A stretch of 64,000 nucleotides of DNA from NCBI GenBank assembly GCA_964346475.1, contig CAYFUM010000002.1:23094-87093 (forward strand), read 5' to 3'. Within the stretch, counting starts at the first letter, position 1, and every line of letters starts with the position of its first letter. Source of the stretch: an uncultured Peptostreptococcaceae bacterium. Its GTDB lineage: Bacteria; Bacillota; Clostridia; Peptostreptococcales; Acidaminobacteraceae. The notes under the pieces are model-generated. The model was not told where the DNA came from, ran no database searches, and worked only from the letters and a program-made list of their open reading frames with translations. Position numbers and translations under genes: made by a program. Below, in pieces: positions 42,313 to 51,251 of this stretch.

Positions 42313-43594
42313 CTATCTCCCCTACCAAATCGTAATCTGAGTTGGAGATAATCCTAACCCTTATCATTTCTCCAAGCTCCACTCCACCTCCAGCCACATA
42401 GACTATACCATCGACCTCGGGAGAGTCAGCCTTTGTCCTGCCTATCCAAGAATCATTATACACCTCATCCACCAAGACTTCTAGGCTTCTTCCAACATAT
42501 TCAGACATTTTCTCCAGGGAGACAATTCTTTGGACTTCCATTATTTCATCATACCTCTGTCTTTTGACTTCTTCGGGTATTTTATCAGCCAGCCTAAAAC
42601 TAGCTATTTCATCTTCATCGGAGTAAACAAAGGCACCTAATTTATCAAAGCCTTGTTCTTGAACAAAATCCTTTAAAACCTGAAAATCTTCCTGGCTTTC
42701 TCCAGGAAAACCCACCATTACCGTACTTCTTAATACAATGTTGGGGATTATCTTTCTAGCTGTTTTTATGACACGCCTAAGGTCAGCCTGGCTGGTGTGT
42801 CTGTTCATCATTTTTAAAATCCTATCACTAGCATGCTGGATTGGCATATCTAAATAGGGCAATACCTTATTAAGCTCAGCAATCCTGAGAAAAAACTCCT
42901 CATCTAGGAGGTCTGGATAGACATATTGAAGCCTAATCCATTGAATTTTTTCAATGTCATTTAAAGCCTCAAGGAGTTCTAGTATTTCTATTTGTCCCCT
43001 ATCCTGGCCAAATCTACTTAAATCCTGGGCAATTAAGATAAGTTCTTTAACACCCCCATCAGCCAGCTCCTCAGCCTCTTTAACTAGATCTTCTATGGTC
43101 TTGCTCCTCATAGGACCTCTAAGCTTTGGTATTATGCAGTAACTACAATGGTTATCACAACCCTCAGAGATTTTCAGGTATTCATAGGGCTTACTTACCT
43201 CTTTATGGCTAAAGGAAGCCAGGGGAAAGTCTATCCTATCAAAGTAGGAACCCTTTTCACCAATGTACTTGTCAATTCTATGGCTATAGGAGGTTCCTAG
43301 GAAAAGATCAACTTCAGGCAGTTCCTTAATAAGGGATGCCTGGTATCTCTGGCTGAGGCAACCAGAAACTATGAGACTTTTACAAGAGGTCTTTTTATAG
43401 TCAGCTAGTTCCAAGATCGCCTCAATACCTTCTGAAACTGCTGCTTCTATAAATCCACAGGTATGAACAATTATATAGTCAGCTCCATGTGGACCAGATA
43501 AAGGTAGATATCCCTGATCTATAAGTAAGCTCTTCATGTTATTTACATCATCTGTGTTTTTTGCACATCCTAGTTCATGTATATAAAATTTCAT
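42296..43594 (-). CDS. rimO: ribosomal protein S12 methylthiotransferase
   Basis: 432 aa with the UPF0004 N-domain (LGCAKN), the radical-SAM motif CDNHCSYCIIP and a C-terminal TRAM domain. Confidence 0.9.
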   Translation of the reverse strand: MKFYIHELGCAKNTDDVNNMKSLLIDQGYLPLSGPHGADYIIVHTCGFIEAAVSEGIEAILELADYKKTSCKSLIVSGCLSQRYQASLIKELPEVDLFLGTSYSHRIDKYIGEKGSYFDRIDFPLASFSHKEVSKPYEYLKISEGCDNHCSYCIIPKLRGPMRSKTIEDLVKEAEELADGGVKELILIAQDLSRFGQDRGQIEILELLEALNDIEKIQWIRLQYVYPDLLDEEFFLRIAELNKVLPYLDMPIQHASDRILKMMNRHTSQADLRRVIKTARKIIPNIVLRSTVMVGFPGESQEDFQVLKDFVQEQGFDKLGAFVYSDEDEIASFRLADKIPEEVKRQRYDEIMEVQRIVSLEKMSEYVGRSLEVLVDEVYNDSWIGRTKADSPEVDGIVYVAGGGVELGEMIRVRIISNSDYDLVGEIDESSK

Positions 43595-44600
43595 TTATTC
43601 TTCTTCCTATTTCTTCAATACTCTCTATCTCATCAATGTTGAAATCTTCCACCACCCTATCCTGGCCTCTTTTAATACTATGACTATAAAGAGGGTCATA
43701 GTAATATAGAAGAAGAATCTCTATTGCCTTGGCCATGGATCCTTGTAGCAGGAGGCCTTCAAGCTCCTGGCATGTTTTTTTACCCAGCTGCTTTTTTAGC
43801 CTCCAAATATCCCTAATAAGCTCCTGGCGATTTTCTAACAGCTTAACAGAATATTCCTCTTCCAAGAGTTTAACCCGGCTGGACAAGCTAGCTTCTAATA
43901 AAACTACCGGGGAGTTTTGCATCTTTTTTTTAAGTTCCGTAGGTAGAAAGAGATTTCCAATTCTAGATGACTCAGCCTCCACCAGAATAGAATCCTTAGC
44001 ACTATAAATCCAGTTAAAAAGGTTGTTTTCAAATTGCTTTTGTGTAGGCTGCTTATCAAGACCAAGGCCTCCAAAAACCGACCCTCTATGAGAAGCCATC
44101 TCCTCTAAATCTAGGACTTCAAATTCACCTTTTAATTCATTTAAAATCCTGGTTTTACCTACTCCCGTCAAGCCCTGAAAGACTAGAAGCTTCCTTTTTT
44201 CGATTTCTATAGGTAGGTTTTCCAGAAGGAAATTTCTATAGCTCTTATATCCACCAATAAGTTTATGTAGACCGGAGTGGCTGGGAGCAAGAAGTCTATA
44301 TAGGGTATCTGACCTCATTCCTCCTCTAGAGCAATAGATAACAAGCTCACCAAGCTCTAATAAAGCTTCAATTTCTTGAACCAAACTACTAAGCTTGGGG
44401 AGAACATGGTCATAGCCAAGTTTTACAGCCTTATCTCTACCCTGATTCTTATAGGTATAGCCAATTAATTCTCTGGCTGTATCATCTAAGATTGGTAGAG
44501 AAGTGGCAAAAGGAATATGGGATAAGCCATATTCCTTTTCACTCCTTAAATCTACAAAAATATACTTGCCCTTTAGAGCTTCTTCTATTCCTAATTCCAT
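43575..44600 (-). CDS. mnmH: tRNA 2-selenouridine synthase
   Basis: 341 aa with an N-terminal rhodanese domain whose active-site loop is YCSRGGMRS, followed by the P-loop GLTGVGKT. This is the SelU/YbbB architecture. It overlaps rimO by 20 nt and ftsK by 10 nt. Confidence 0.8.
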   Translation of the reverse strand: MELGIEEALKGKYIFVDLRSEKEYGLSHIPFATSLPILDDTARELIGYTYKNQGRDKAVKLGYDHVLPKLSSLVQEIEALLELGELVIYCSRGGMRSDTLYRLLAPSHSGLHKLIGGYKSYRNFLLENLPIEIEKRKLLVFQGLTGVGKTRILNELKGEFEVLDLEEMASHRGSVFGGLGLDKQPTQKQFENNLFNWIYSAKDSILVEAESSRIGNLFLPTELKKKMQNSPVVLLEASLSSRVKLLEEEYSVKLLENRQELIRDIWRLKKQLGKKTCQELEGLLLQGSMAKAIEILLLYYYDPLYSHSIKRGQDRVVEDFNIDEIESIEEIGRRINEILYT

Positions 44601-49719: not shown

Positions 49720-49983
49720 TTATTTACGCAGTCCTAGACGTTCGATTAGATTTCTATAACGCTGGATATCTTGTTTTCTTACATAATCCAAGAGATTTCT
49801 TCTCTTACCTACCAATTTTAAAAGACCTCTTCTTGAATGGTGATCTTTAGGATGAACCTTTAAGTGCTCATTCAATTCATTAATTCTAAAAGTGTGGATA
49901 GCAACCTGAACTTCTGCAGATCCCACATCATTGTCATGGAGTCTATACTCCTCGATAATTGTTTGTTTTTGTTCTTTTGTCAT
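49720..49983 (-). CDS. rpsO: 30S ribosomal protein S15
   Basis: 87 aa with GSAEVQVA and [21 protein letters not shown] blocks. Confidence 0.97.
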
Positions 49984-50094
49984 TTCTTTCTCCTAAATTA
50001 TTATTCACTTAGGCCCTGTAATAGTTGGAGTATCTAGAACAAGGCCAAAGTACCATCACTAATGTTATCACAGTAAATTTACTTTGTAAAGAAT

Positions 50095-50346
50095 CTATTT
50101 TTTTCTCAGTGAATCTATATTTTCTTCTAACCACTGCATAATTGCCCTGGATTCATATAGGGCTTTTCCCCTAATATCCAAACAGGGTATCTGTCTTTTA
50201 CCACCTAGCTCAACTAGTTCCTTTATATAGTTTTTATCTTCAGCAATATCAAGGATTTCAATGTCTAAATTCTCTTCTCTTATGAGACGCTCCGCGTCCT
50301 TGCAATAGGGTCAGTAGTTTCCAGTAAATAATCTAATCATTGCCAT
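50095..50346 (-). CDS. glutaredoxin-like thioredoxin-fold protein with in-frame TGA at the redox cysteine (probable selenocysteine, U-P-Y-C)
   Basis: Not in the ORF track. My translation is MAMIRLFTGNY[TGA 50313-50311]PYCKDAERLIREENLDIEILDIAEDKNYIKELVELGGKRQIPCLDIRGKALYESRAIMQWLEENIDSLRKK, ending at a stop at 50097-50095. The frame checks out: 252 nt from ATG 50346, or 246 nt from ATG 50340. AAGGAG lies 4 and 10 nt upstream of the two ATGs, and ATG 50346 overlaps the ribF stop (TAATG). Confidence 0.75.
50285..50299 (-). promoter_or_regulatory. candidate bacterial SECIS hairpin
   Basis: RNA is GGACGC-GGA-GCGUCU, 5 GC-rich pairs plus a G-U pair. It begins 11 nt after the UGA, and the apical loop starts with GG about 17 nt after the UGA. 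Confidence 0.55.
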
Positions 50347-51251
50347 TATTCTCCTTTTAAACTCTTTTCTTCGAAATAGGATATTGTATCCTCTACATCC
50401 CTTTTTATCTGAGCCTTCAAATCCTCCAGGTTGTCATACTTGATTTCCTCCCTTAGATAGTGAAGAAAATCAATCTTAACCTCCTGGCCATAGATATTTT
50501 TATCAAATTCCAAAATATGGGTCTCTACAGAAAAGGGCCTGCCATCAAAGGTGGGTATTTTACCAATATTAGTAACACTCATATAAACCTGGTCAACCAG
50601 GTAGGTCTTAGTGATATAGACACCAGTTCTCAGTGCGTAAACACTGTCATTTATAGTCACATTGGTGGTTGGGTAACCAAGGGATTTGCCTATTTTTTTA
50701 CCATGGATAACCTGGCCACTATGCCTATAGGGTCTCCCCAGATATTGGGCTAGTTTTTCCATCTCACCTCTAGTCATAAATTCCCTTATACTAGTAGAGC
50801 TGACTATTTTTCCATCAATATAGTAGGGATCAACAAGGATTTTTTCTAGGCTATCCCCGCTGTAGTCCCTGGCATCATAACCAAACTTAAAATCATGACC
50901 CACAATTATTTTCTTTATGGGTAAGCCTAAGTAGTCTAGGAATTCCCCCTGAGACATCTTTCTTATGCTTTGATTGAATTCAAGCGCTAAAACCACATCA
51001 ATGCCCAGTCCATCTATTATATCTAACTTTTCATCAGCGGAAATTATTGGTATAACCTTCTTGCCAGCAATTAATTCCTTGGGGTGGTTGGTAAAGGTAA
51101 CCACCAGGCTCTTTAGACCACTTTTTTTCGCTTCAGCATTAAGTGCATTGAGAATTTTTCTGTGGCCAAGATGGACCCCATCAAAGTTTCCCATGGTAAT
51201 GGCAAATTCTCCATCAACATGCCTTAAGTCCTCAACTCTTTTAACTACCAT
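50346..51251 (-). CDS. ribF: bifunctional riboflavin kinase / FMN adenylyltransferase
   Basis: Has the GNFDGVHLGH motif and a C-terminal riboflavin kinase domain (GYPTTN..). The likely start is MVVKRVED at 51251; the track ORF begins at 51296 inside truB. Confidence 0.9.
   Translation of the reverse strand: MVVKRVEDLRHVDGEFAITMGNFDGVHLGHRKILNALNAEAKKSGLKSLVVTFTNHPKELIAGKKVIPIISADEKLDIIDGLGIDVVLALEFNQSIRKMSQGEFLDYLGLPIKKIIVGHDFKFGYDARDYSGDSLEKILVDPYYIDGKIVSSTSIREFMTRGEMEKLAQYLGRPYRHSGQVIHGKKIGKSLGYPTTNVTINDSVYALRTGVYITKTYLVDQVYMSVTNIGKIPTFDGRPFSVETHILEFDKNIYGQEVKIDFLHYLREEIKYDNLEDLKAQIKRDVEDTISYFEEKSLKGE

What the first reader, a model, noticed from the sequence alone, without database searches (positions are those of the whole stretch)
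50095..50346. Hidden glutaredoxin-like selenoprotein (TGA in place of the first Cys of CPYC) as the last cistron of the nusA-infB-ribF operon
The 360-nt stretch between ribF and rpsO looks non-coding in the ORF track. Reading the minus strand through a single TGA (50313-50311) gives a complete ~82-aa glutaredoxin/NrdH-type fold: MAMIRLFTGNY-U-PYCKDAERL...GGKRQIPCLDIRGKALYES... The TGA falls exactly where the N-terminal catalytic Cys of C-P-Y-C belongs. The resolving Cys, the cis-Pro (IP) and the G-K..L-Y region are all intact. There is no other stop or frameshift. Eleven nt after the UGA a GC-rich hairpin begins (GGACGC-GGA-GCGUCU, 50299-50285), with GG at the start of the apical loop. This matches my recollection of bacterial SECIS geometry. 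The start codon overlaps the ribF stop (TAATG) and has an AAGGAG upstream, so it should be translated. The same window encodes selenouridine synthase (mnmH), so selenophosphate metabolism is expected in this organism. Sec-containing Grx-like proteins are known from Clostridia-type anaerobes, so the class is not new. However, this gene would be missed or called a pseudogene by standard callers. Its placement in a translation-factor operon is unusual.
Basis: partly seen in the sequence, partly recalled or inferred. Interest (0 to 1): 0.8.

Follow-up and report, generated by a model that had tools for sequence, protein, structure and literature searches.

The report
Unannotated selenocysteine glutaredoxin after ribF
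The apparently empty gap between ribF and rpsO holds a small glutaredoxin-like gene whose catalytic cysteine codon is a conserved UGA, almost certainly read as selenocysteine; this is a known kind of protein that gene callers miss or truncate.

Summary
Window 50346-50095 (minus strand) is an 83-codon frame with one in-frame TGA (50313-50311) at the first Cys of CxxC in a glutaredoxin / GST-N fold (Pfam PF00462 E=4e-13; AlphaFold pLDDT 91.5).

It is not a pseudogene:
- Seven species with the same ribF-[grx]-rpsO arrangement, plus Irregularibacter muris at another locus, carry TGA at exactly this codon. None has TAA or TAG.
- Synonymous sites are saturated (pS 0.6-0.9), yet dN/dS after the TGA is 0.05-0.26.
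- A syntenic orthologue and most family members have Cys there.

A 5-7 bp hairpin starts 11 nt after the UGA in the syntenic species. Its loop (GGA or GUA) fits the published bacterial SECIS consensus, apart from a marginal energy (-7.3 against <= -7.5 kcal/mol). Codon choice in its arms is restricted. Formal covariation is not significant.

Gene callers skip the gene, truncate it to 64-65 aa (including RefSeq WP_257533166.1), or read TGA as Trp.

Not shown: selA, selB and tRNA-Sec in this genome, which I could not search.

Sec-glutaredoxins with UxxC are already known, so this is a new, unannotated member of a known kind. Its conserved place as last cistron of the nusA-infB-ribF operon is a modest curiosity.

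The parts
50095..50346 (-). Coding sequence of the glutaredoxin-like selenoprotein: 83 codons plus a TAG stop. An alternative start at ATG 50340 gives 81 aa and matches the orthologues' MIRLF... start.
   Evidence: Translation. Pfam Glutaredoxin and GST_N_3. AlphaFold model with pLDDT 91.5 and a beta-alpha-beta-alpha-beta-beta-alpha fold. Best PDB fold matches are C. oremlandii cGrx2 (4TR0) and E. coli Grx3. Orthologues.
50311..50313 (-). In-frame UGA, the proposed selenocysteine codon (residue 12, first position of U-P-Y-C).
   Evidence: TGA is kept at this codon in L006, L014, L017, L022, L024, L025 and L009/L021. The syntenic L007 has TGT, and the family column is Cys in at least 90% of sequences. 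Residue 12 sits between strand 4-8 and helix 13-24 in the model.
50285..50299 (-). SECIS-like hairpin: 5' arm 50299-50294 (GGACGC), loop 50293-50291 (GGA), 3' arm 50290-50285 (GCGUCU). The 11-nt spacer after the UGA is 50310-50300.
   Evidence: Fold energy -7.3 kcal/mol. Same register and same G[G/U]A loop in seven syntenic species; 85.7% of cells paired against 37-69% in slid controls. Fixed GGC, GTG, CGY and CTY codons in the arms.
50351..50356 (-). Shine-Dalgarno AAGGAG, 4 nt before the first ATG and 10 nt before the second.
   Evidence: Read directly from the sequence.
50346..51250 (-). ribF (FAD synthetase / riboflavin kinase). Its TAA stop overlaps the ATG of the selenoprotein gene. The low coordinate follows the ORF list; the high one is computed from the 301-aa gene call on L001, while the longest ORF extends to 51296.
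   Evidence: ORF list. Pfam FAD_syn and Flavokinase on the identical gene in L001. The same overlap (TGATG) in L006.
50062..50090 (-). rpsO promoter-like site: TTTACA, 17 nt, TAACAT with TG upstream. It starts 5 nt after the selenoprotein stop codon.
   Evidence: Promoter scan. The CTTTACA box and a -10-like hexamer are conserved in eight species.
49720..49983 (-). rpsO (ribosomal protein S15), the next gene downstream.
   Evidence: PF00312.
43575..44600 (-). selU / mnmH (tRNA 2-selenouridine synthase). It implies selenophosphate supply in this organism and keeps the same position in the L006 and L017 relatives.
   Evidence: PF26341 AAA_SelU on the identical gene in L001/L002, and on L006 and L017. 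Rhodanese domain.

Best explanation
Window 50346-50095 (minus strand) encodes a small dithiol-type (U-P-Y-C) oxidoreductase with a glutaredoxin / GST-N-terminal fold. Residue 12 is selenocysteine.

Proposed mechanism:
- The gene is the last cistron of the nusA-infB-rbfA-nrnA-truB-ribF transcription unit. It is translationally coupled to ribF because the stop and start codons overlap.
- When the ribosome reaches UGA12, the hairpin that begins 11 nt downstream (6 bp, loop GGA) recruits SelB-GTP-Sec-tRNASec. Sec is inserted instead of termination (inferred).
- In the folded protein, Sec12 lies at the N-terminus of helix 1 and acts as the attacking nucleophile. Cys15 resolves the intermediate to a selenenylsulfide.
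- The invariant cis-Pro54 and the GST-like 'YES...I..WL' motif form the site for the thiol substrate or co-substrate.

Shown: the frame, the fold, the Cys/UGA correspondence, conservation of the UGA and the hairpin, purifying selection on both sides of the UGA, and the operon position.
Inferred: that the inserted residue is Sec, since the Sec machinery was not seen; the catalytic cycle; and the reductant.
For: 1. The UGA aligns with the catalytic Cys. The family column is Cys in at least 90% of 68 sequences. The syntenic orthologue L007/L008 has TGT, giving CPHC.

2. All eight truncated 64-65 aa gene calls whose DNA I fetched have TGA at this codon. Six of them are further species with ribF-[grx]-rpsO synteny (the window is the seventh): L006, L014, L017 (same species as L015), L022, L024 and L025. 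The other two (L009 and L021, carrying the same gene sequence) are Irregularibacter muris, where the gene follows ileS. The stop is never TAA or TAG, although TGA makes up only 14 of 59 stops in the window.

3. Purifying selection continues after the UGA. pS is 0.57-0.91 and pN 0.10-0.27 among the syntenic species, and dN/dS is 0.05-0.26 where it can be computed. The nine codons before the UGA are also conserved (MIRLFT.NY). Two SNPs among six assemblies of the window's own species are both synonymous.

4. The window has no in-frame start codon after the UGA until a TTG at residue 56.

5. The hairpin has the same register in all seven syntenic species. The loop is GGA in six and GUA-centred in L022, and GGAU in I. 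muris. It meets the published bSECIS constraints on loop size, stem length, G in the first two loop positions, and UGA-to-loop spacing (17 nt) (PMC13188914). Arm codons are fixed: Gly15 always GGC, Val16 always GTG, Arg18 only CGY, Leu19 CTY. The same amino acids elsewhere in the gene use many codons; the same-codon fraction is 0.67 in the arms against 0.48 elsewhere. The pairs A-U to G-C and C-G to U-A differ compensatorily between the window and its orthologues.

6. Three of four Cys-type homologues lack a comparable hairpin at that place.

7. The fold is confident (pLDDT 91.5). Its closest solved structure is the Cys paralogue of a proven Sec-glutaredoxin, C. oremlandii cGrx2, PDB 4TR0.

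8. selU lies in the window and in relatives. NCBI labels the MAGs carrying orthologues as Tissierellia. selA, selB, selD and selenoproteins are documented in Tissierellaceae (PMC5924567; bioRxiv 10.1101/2022.07.06.499078).
Against: - No selA, selB, selC or selD was seen. There is no tRNA in the window or in nine related loci. None of the 20 window ORFs I scanned is a sel gene. The rest of the genome could not be reached.
- The hairpin is small. At -7.3 kcal/mol it narrowly misses the consensus threshold of <= -7.5, and it is unremarkable against shuffles (z = 0.32).
- Formal covariation is not significant: 124 of 500 shuffles reach the observed score. Both compensatory pairs come from one sequence, the window itself.
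- One Cys-type homologue (L012) also has a -7.5 kcal/mol hairpin with a GGUU loop after its Cys codon. Hairpin presence is therefore not perfectly specific to UGA forms.
- No Rfam family matches the region.
Confidence: 0.88

Rival explanations
1. UGA read-through without selenocysteine. The codon is suppressed by a near-cognate tRNA (Trp or Cys) or by Cys-tRNASec, giving a W/C-P-Y-C protein. The hairpin merely slows termination.
For: The Sec machinery was not observed in any sequence available. The hairpin is weak and its covariation is not significant.
Against: The position is the catalytic Cys in at least 90% of homologues. Trp there would inactivate the protein. The hairpin's place and its G[G/U]A loop match the SelB-dependent bSECIS consensus. 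Exclusive use of TGA across eight species is the signature of Sec recoding. selU in the window implies selenophosphate is available.
Confidence: 0.06
2. Split or truncated gene. UGA terminates an 11-residue peptide, and a 64-aa protein starts at the GTG inside the hairpin, as gene callers annotate it ('MERLI...').
For: Prodigal and PGAP-65 aa products in six of the relatives. Six of seven syntenic species have GTG at codon 16.
Against: The window has GCG at that codon and no in-frame start until residue 56, yet it keeps the whole frame. A product lacking strand 1 and the CxxC motif would lose both the fold core and the active site. The codons upstream of the UGA are conserved in frame.
Confidence: 0.03
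3. Pseudogene: a recent nonsense mutation (TGC or TGT to TGA) in a decaying glutaredoxin gene.
For: A single base change would give TGA. Annotation pipelines leave the region uncalled.
Against: TGA is at the same codon in eight species with saturated synonymous divergence. There are no further stops or frameshifts, and dN/dS is 0.05-0.26.
Confidence: 0.01
4. Alternative genetic code (TGA read as Trp or Gly), or a sequencing error.
For: One ENA gene call (P0001) translated the gene with TGA as W.
Against: TGA ends 14 of 59 window genes, and long housekeeping ORFs are intact under code 11. Six independent assemblies of the same species all show TGA.
Confidence: 0.01

Closest known systems
Selenoprotein glutaredoxin Grx1 of Clostridium (Alkaliphilus) oremlandii OhILAs (U13-x-x-C16; Kim et al. 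2011, as cited in PMC4479559 and PMC13188914) and its Cys paralogue cGrx2 (PDB 4TR0/4TR1)
   Same: Small stand-alone glutaredoxin fold with Sec as the first residue of UxxC. The active-site context is nearly identical: cGrx2 has TKNYCPYCKK and the window has TGNYUPYCKD. It comes from an anaerobic member of the Bacillota. 4TR0 is the best sequence match and the best fold match in the PDB.
   Different: Only about 23% identity over the fold, and the sequence match stops at residue 54. The C-terminal half (GGKRQIPCLDI.GKALYES.AIM.WLEEN) is GST-N / SspA-like rather than classical Grx3-like. It is therefore a different subfamily. Grx1 itself was not available for comparison. The genomic context (last cistron after ribF) is not described for Grx1.
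Bacterial SECIS elements (consensus of Zhang & Gladyshev, as summarised in PMC13188914 Fig. 2)
   Same: A hairpin inside the coding region immediately 3' of the UGA, with a 3-nt loop, a 6-bp stem, loop pattern N1-G-[G/U]-N-N2 (C-GGA-G here, GUA in L022), and 17 nt between the UGA and the loop.
   Different: It is at the small, weak end of the range: -7.3 kcal/mol against the <= -7.5 threshold. No lower stem is evident. No Rfam model matches.
GST-like (PF13409) and UXX-star glutaredoxin-like selenoproteins listed in reviews and in NCBIfam (NF041212, NF041114)
   Same: Thioredoxin-fold proteins that contain Sec. The window protein also scores on GST_N_2 and GST_N_3.
   Different: UXX-star proteins carry a Sec three residues from the C-terminus; the window protein ends ...SLRKK and scores 29.5 bits against a cut-off of 66. 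The review gives no Sec motif for the GST-like entry, so identity with that family could not be judged.

Membership tests
Bacterial selenoprotein gene (SelB/SECIS-dependent UGA recoding) | In-frame UGA aligned with Cys in homologues (Cys/Sec pair) | tested here: met
   TGT in the syntenic L007; the family column is Cys in at least 90% of 68 sequences.
Bacterial selenoprotein gene (SelB/SECIS-dependent UGA recoding) | UGA conserved in orthologues, with an intact frame under purifying selection on both sides | tested here: met
   Eight species carry TGA with no other stop codon at that position. dN/dS is 0.05-0.26 and pS 0.6-0.9.
Bacterial selenoprotein gene (SelB/SECIS-dependent UGA recoding) | bSECIS geometry: loop of 3-9 nt, stem of 4-16 bp, G in the first two loop positions, 16-37 nt from UGA to loop | tested here: met
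   Loop GGA (3 nt), stem 6 bp, spacing 17 nt. The same holds in the orthologues. Criteria are from PMC13188914.
Bacterial selenoprotein gene (SelB/SECIS-dependent UGA recoding) | bSECIS minimum free energy <= -7.5 kcal/mol | tested here: inconclusive
   -7.3 kcal/mol in the window. Across all eight UGA-bearing species the 28-nt segment gives -4.0 to -7.6 kcal/mol (-6.2 to -7.6 for the syntenic orthologues), and a 48-nt context gives -4.8 to -15.3. The result depends on the segment folded.
Bacterial selenoprotein gene (SelB/SECIS-dependent UGA recoding) | Covariation supporting the hairpin | tested here: inconclusive
   85.7% of cells are paired against 37-69% when slid. There are two compensatory pairs, but 124 of 500 shuffles reach the score. 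Synonymous-codon restriction in the arms is supportive.
Bacterial selenoprotein gene (SelB/SECIS-dependent UGA recoding) | selA, selB, selC (tRNA-Sec) and selD present in the genome | not testable with these tools
   Only 64 kb of the genome is held. It has no tRNA and no sel gene apart from selU. The genome-collection scans found nothing.
Bacterial selenoprotein gene (SelB/SECIS-dependent UGA recoding) | Selenium actually incorporated (75Se labelling or mass spectrometry) | not testable with these tools
   Needs an experiment.
Glutaredoxin (Pfam PF00462) | Profile match above the curated cut-off | tested here: met
   49.7 bits against 22.9, E=4.4e-13, with U replaced by C.
Glutaredoxin (Pfam PF00462) | Thioredoxin/glutaredoxin fold with the active-site dyad at the N-terminus of helix 1 and a cis-Pro before strand 3 | tested here: met
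   AlphaFold pLDDT 91.5, with strand 4-8 and helix 13-24. Pro54 is invariant. Foldseek best hits are 4TR0 and 3GRX with probability 1.00.
Glutaredoxin (Pfam PF00462) | Glutathione-dependent disulfide reductase activity | not testable with these tools
   Only the GST-like 'YES..I..WL' motif and the GST_N profile hits hint at binding of a gamma-glutamyl thiol.
NrdH-redoxin (TIGR02194) | Profile match at the curated cut-off | tested here: not met
   26.9 bits against 85.75.
UXX-star glutaredoxin-like selenoproteins (NF041212) | Sec three residues from the C-terminus, and a profile match at the cut-off | tested here: not met
   The C-terminus is ...SLRKK, then TAG. The score is 29.5 bits against 66.

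The most novel reading that the evidence does not exclude
The gene's fixed position may be functional rather than accidental. It is translationally coupled to ribF at the end of the nusA-infB operon, 5 nt before the rpsO promoter, and four genes upstream of selU. The efficiency of SelB-dependent UGA decoding would then report selenium status to this translation and RNA-modification cluster. Alternatively, the Sec-redoxin could be a dedicated redox partner of a neighbouring enzyme such as RibF, SelU or the MiaB-like radical-SAM enzyme. Neither role has been described for a glutaredoxin.
Probability: 0.06. Interest if true: 0.65.

Novelty: new member of a known kind. Interest (0 to 1): 0.35.

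Why it matters
- It adds a conserved selenoprotein subfamily with a glutaredoxin / GST-N fold, found in uncultured Tissierellia-like Bacillota and in the cultured Irregularibacter muris. Current pipelines miss it, truncate it, or translate it as Trp, including RefSeq entry WP_257533166.1.
- Correcting it improves selenoproteome counts for anaerobic-digester and gut Bacillota.
- It offers a compact natural UGA plus 15-nt SECIS module that could be tested in a cultivable host.
- It does not change what is known about how Sec is decoded or what Sec-glutaredoxins do.

Tried and rejected
- The genome-collection scan with a full-length protein alignment found nothing. One of its two patterns required a Cys codon at the Sec position.
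- A DNA pattern from the rpsO leader also found nothing in the genome collection. Later data showed most relatives have GGTACTTTAGC where I had specified GGTACTTTGGC, so the pattern was too strict.
- The first word-indexed protein search with the single sequence returned only the gene itself, called with TGA as W.
- Rfam gave no match at gathering thresholds. A permissive scan of 49940-50400 gave only chance hits with E > 1.
- ARAGORN found no tRNA in the window or in nine loci.
- A read-through scan of all window gaps found no second selenoprotein candidate.
- Covariation statistics on the hairpin were not significant.
- The Kim et al. 2011 paper (PMC3062254) is not held, so the Grx1 sequence and its SECIS could not be compared directly.
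- Rejected explanations: pseudogene, alternative code, assembly error, and a separately initiated 64-aa product (see the rival explanations).

Full report
**1. What is in the sequence**

On the minus strand, window 50346-50095 reads MAMIRLFTGNY*PYCKDAERLIREENLDIEILDIAEDKNYIKELVELGGKRQIPCLDIRGKALYESRAIMQWLEENIDSLRKK*. There is a single internal TGA at 50313-50311.
- The first ATG overlaps the ribF TAA (TAATG) and follows AAGGAG (50356-50351) by 4 nt.
- A second ATG (50340) corresponds to the MIRLF start used by the orthologues.
- The ORF list shows nothing longer than 41 aa in the 362-nt ribF-rpsO gap.
- Gene callers left the gap empty on five other assemblies of the same species, L001-L005.

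With Cys in place of the stop, the protein matches Pfam Glutaredoxin (E=4.4e-13, 49.7 bits against a cut-off of 22.9) and the GST N-terminal families. No NCBIfam model reaches its cut-off. NrdH scores 26.9 against 85.75, and UXX-star scores 29.5 against 66.

An AlphaFold model built on 68 family members is confident: pLDDT 91.5, pTM 0.81.
- It has the glutaredoxin topology.
- Residue 12 lies between strand 4-8 and helix 13-24, the canonical place of the nucleophilic Cys.
- Its best fold and sequence matches in the PDB are C. oremlandii cGrx2 (4TR0/4TR1) and E. coli Grx3, followed by SspA and GST N-domains.

**2. Trivial explanations excluded**

- TGA is an ordinary stop in 14 of 59 window genes, so the organism does not use code 4 or 25.
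- Six independent assemblies of the species all have TGA. The only two SNPs in the frame are synonymous.
- One ENA gene call (P0001) is the same gene translated with TGA as Trp. This is an annotation artefact.

**3. Comparative evidence**

An exhaustive HMMER search and a profile search found hundreds of Cys-containing relatives. They also found about ten clusters of 64-65 aa proteins that begin just after the CxxC region.

I fetched DNA for eight of these truncated calls. Every one has an in-frame TGA exactly at the first Cys of CxxC.
- L006, L014, L017 (same species as L015), L022, L024 and L025 all lie between ribF and rpsO. Where the contigs are long enough, they sit in the same polC-rimP-nusA-ylxR-infB-rbfA-nrnA-truB-ribF-[grx]-rpsO-pnp-dut-ftsK-selU array as the window.
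- L009 and L021 (same gene sequence) are Irregularibacter muris, where the gene follows ileS.
- A further syntenic orthologue (L007/L008) has TGT, giving CPHC.
- NCBI labels the MAGs carrying two of these orthologues as Tissierellia bacterium. The I. muris copy is RefSeq WP_257533166.1, a 65-aa 'glutathione S-transferase N-terminal domain-containing protein'.

Amino-acid identity among the syntenic UGA forms is 56-81%.
- Synonymous sites are saturated (pS 0.57-0.91).
- pN downstream of the UGA is only 0.10-0.27, and dN/dS is 0.05-0.26 where it can be computed.
- No species has a second stop or a frameshift.
- The stop is never TAA or TAG. If it were drawn from the window's own stop usage, eight TGAs would have a probability of about (14/59)^8, roughly 1e-5. 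This is a rough figure because the lineages are not fully independent.
- The window has GCG where the relatives have the GTG that callers use as a start. It has no in-frame start until residue 56. A separately initiated truncated protein therefore cannot explain conservation of the window's frame.

**4. The hairpin**

In all seven syntenic species a hairpin begins 11-13 nt after the UGA (11 nt in the window) in the same register. It has 5-7 bp.
- The loop is GGA in six species. In L022, GAA has become TAT and the loop is centred on GUA.
- I. muris has a 7-bp A/U-rich stem with loop GGAU.

The published bacterial SECIS consensus asks for four things (PMC13188914):
- a loop of 3-9 nt and a stem of 4-16 bp;
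- a G in the first two loop positions, usually G[G/U]N;
- 16-37 nt between the UGA and the loop;
- a minimum free energy of -7.5 kcal/mol or lower.

The window meets the first three (its spacing is 17 nt) and narrowly misses the fourth at -7.3 kcal/mol.

Evidence for RNA-level constraint:
- Gly15 is always GGC, Val16 always GTG, Arg18 only CGY and Leu19 only CTY. The same amino acids elsewhere in the gene use many codons. The same-codon fraction is 0.67 in the arms against 0.48 elsewhere.
- The peptide 'GVERL' encoded by the hairpin is specific to the UGA forms.
- Pairing is 85.7% of cells, against 37-69% when the 3' partners are slid.
- Two pairs differ compensatorily (A-U to G-C, and C-G to U-A).

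Caveats:
- Both compensatory pairs are contributed by the window sequence alone. 124 of 500 shuffles reach the covariation score, so covariation is not statistically significant.
- Of four Cys-type homologues, two have no hairpin there and one has a weak one. L012 has a -7.5 kcal/mol hairpin with loop GGUU.
- In the window, a 6-bp hairpin with at least 3 G-C pairs and a GG-initiated triloop occurs at 2 of 127,960 positions.

**5. What could not be shown**

The Sec machinery could not be checked.
- The window and nine loci contain no tRNA.
- Twenty window ORFs that I scanned are housekeeping genes.
- Both genome-collection scans returned nothing.
- The only selenium gene seen is selU (43575-44600). 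It implies selenophosphate synthesis but not Sec decoding (PMC9312934).
- At the level of the class the trait is documented. Clostridium ultunense (Tissierellaceae) has selA, selB and selD. Tissierella creatinophila has GrdB (PMC5924567; bioRxiv 10.1101/2022.07.06.499078).

**6. Mechanism and comparison with known systems**

The best-supported reading is a SelB/SECIS-decoded U-P-Y-C redoxin.
- Sec12 attacks the substrate.
- Cys15 resolves the intermediate.
- cis-Pro54 and a GST-like 'YES..I..WL' motif shape the thiol-binding site.

Sec-glutaredoxins with UxxC are already known and one has been characterised: C. oremlandii Grx1 with U13/C16 (PMC4479559; PMC13188914).
- The window protein shares the active-site context with that system's Cys paralogue cGrx2 (TKNYCPYCKK against TGNYUPYCKD).
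- It shares only about 23% identity over the fold, and its C-terminal half is GST-N-like.
- It is therefore a separate subfamily.
- No NCBIfam model covers it. This fits its truncated annotation in RefSeq and in MAGs.

**7. Verdict**

This is a new, unannotated member of a known kind. Its conserved position as last cistron after ribF, immediately before the rpsO promoter, is real, but its significance is unknown.

- Confidence that the UGA is decoded and the protein is made: about 0.95.
- Confidence that the residue is Sec: about 0.88.

Noticed in passing
window 50090-49984 (minus strand); L006 6196-6334; L017 10196-10308; L022 4196-4308: The grx-rpsO spacer is conserved at the DNA level across eight species. 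It holds a promoter (CTTTACA, 17 nt, TAACAT/TAATAT with TG) followed by a leader of about 75 nt. The leader has a conserved stem-loop (CUUU[G/A]GC...GCU[A/G]AAG, 14 predicted pairs, 3 of them with compensatory changes) just before the rpsO Shine-Dalgarno. It may be an S15 autoregulatory leader. No Rfam family matches.
   Followed up: partly
L007 3022-3411 and L008 3045-3434: The only syntenic Cys-type orthologue (CPHC) lacks the usual stop because of a 1-nt shift. It is called as a 129-aa protein that reads through the rpsO promoter and leader and overlaps the rpsO start. The same is seen in two samples. It could be a real C-terminal extension or early decay of the Cys form.
   Followed up: no
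L012 about 367-410: A Cys-containing (TGC) distant homologue has a -7.5 kcal/mol hairpin with a GGUU loop (GUCGCAA-GGUU-UUGCGAU) 7 nt after its Cys codon. It could be a fossil SECIS left by a Sec-to-Cys conversion, or chance.
   Followed up: no
P0001 (ENA contig, 620 bp), identical to window 50346-50095: A public gene call translated this gene with TGA as Trp, evidently by applying code 4 to a short contig. This produced a full-length 'W-P-Y-C' protein in the databases. Such entries can mask Sec genes in homology searches.
   Followed up: yes
window 43575-44600 (selU), and the same relative position in L001, L002, L006, L017, L018 and L019: selU (tRNA 2-selenouridine synthase) is conserved four genes downstream of the Sec-glutaredoxin (rpsO, pnp, dut and ftsK, then selU overlapping the end of ftsK). 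A MiaB-like radical-SAM gene follows. Two selenium-dependent functions therefore sit within about 7 kb throughout this lineage.
   Followed up: partly
L018 (ERR3345697) and L002 (ERR3345697): The same sequencing run holds two related species, the window's and the L017 type, with about 61% identity in this protein. Both have the UGA form, so the trait is present in co-existing populations of one community.
   Followed up: no
window 57726-57694 (minus strand): A strong G+C-rich hairpin (GAGUGGGG-ACC-CCACUC) lies at the polC-rimP junction, 12 nt after an out-of-frame TGA. It surfaced in the hairpin control scan. It is probably a transcript-level signal at the start of the rimP-nusA operon and is not a Sec site.
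   Followed up: no
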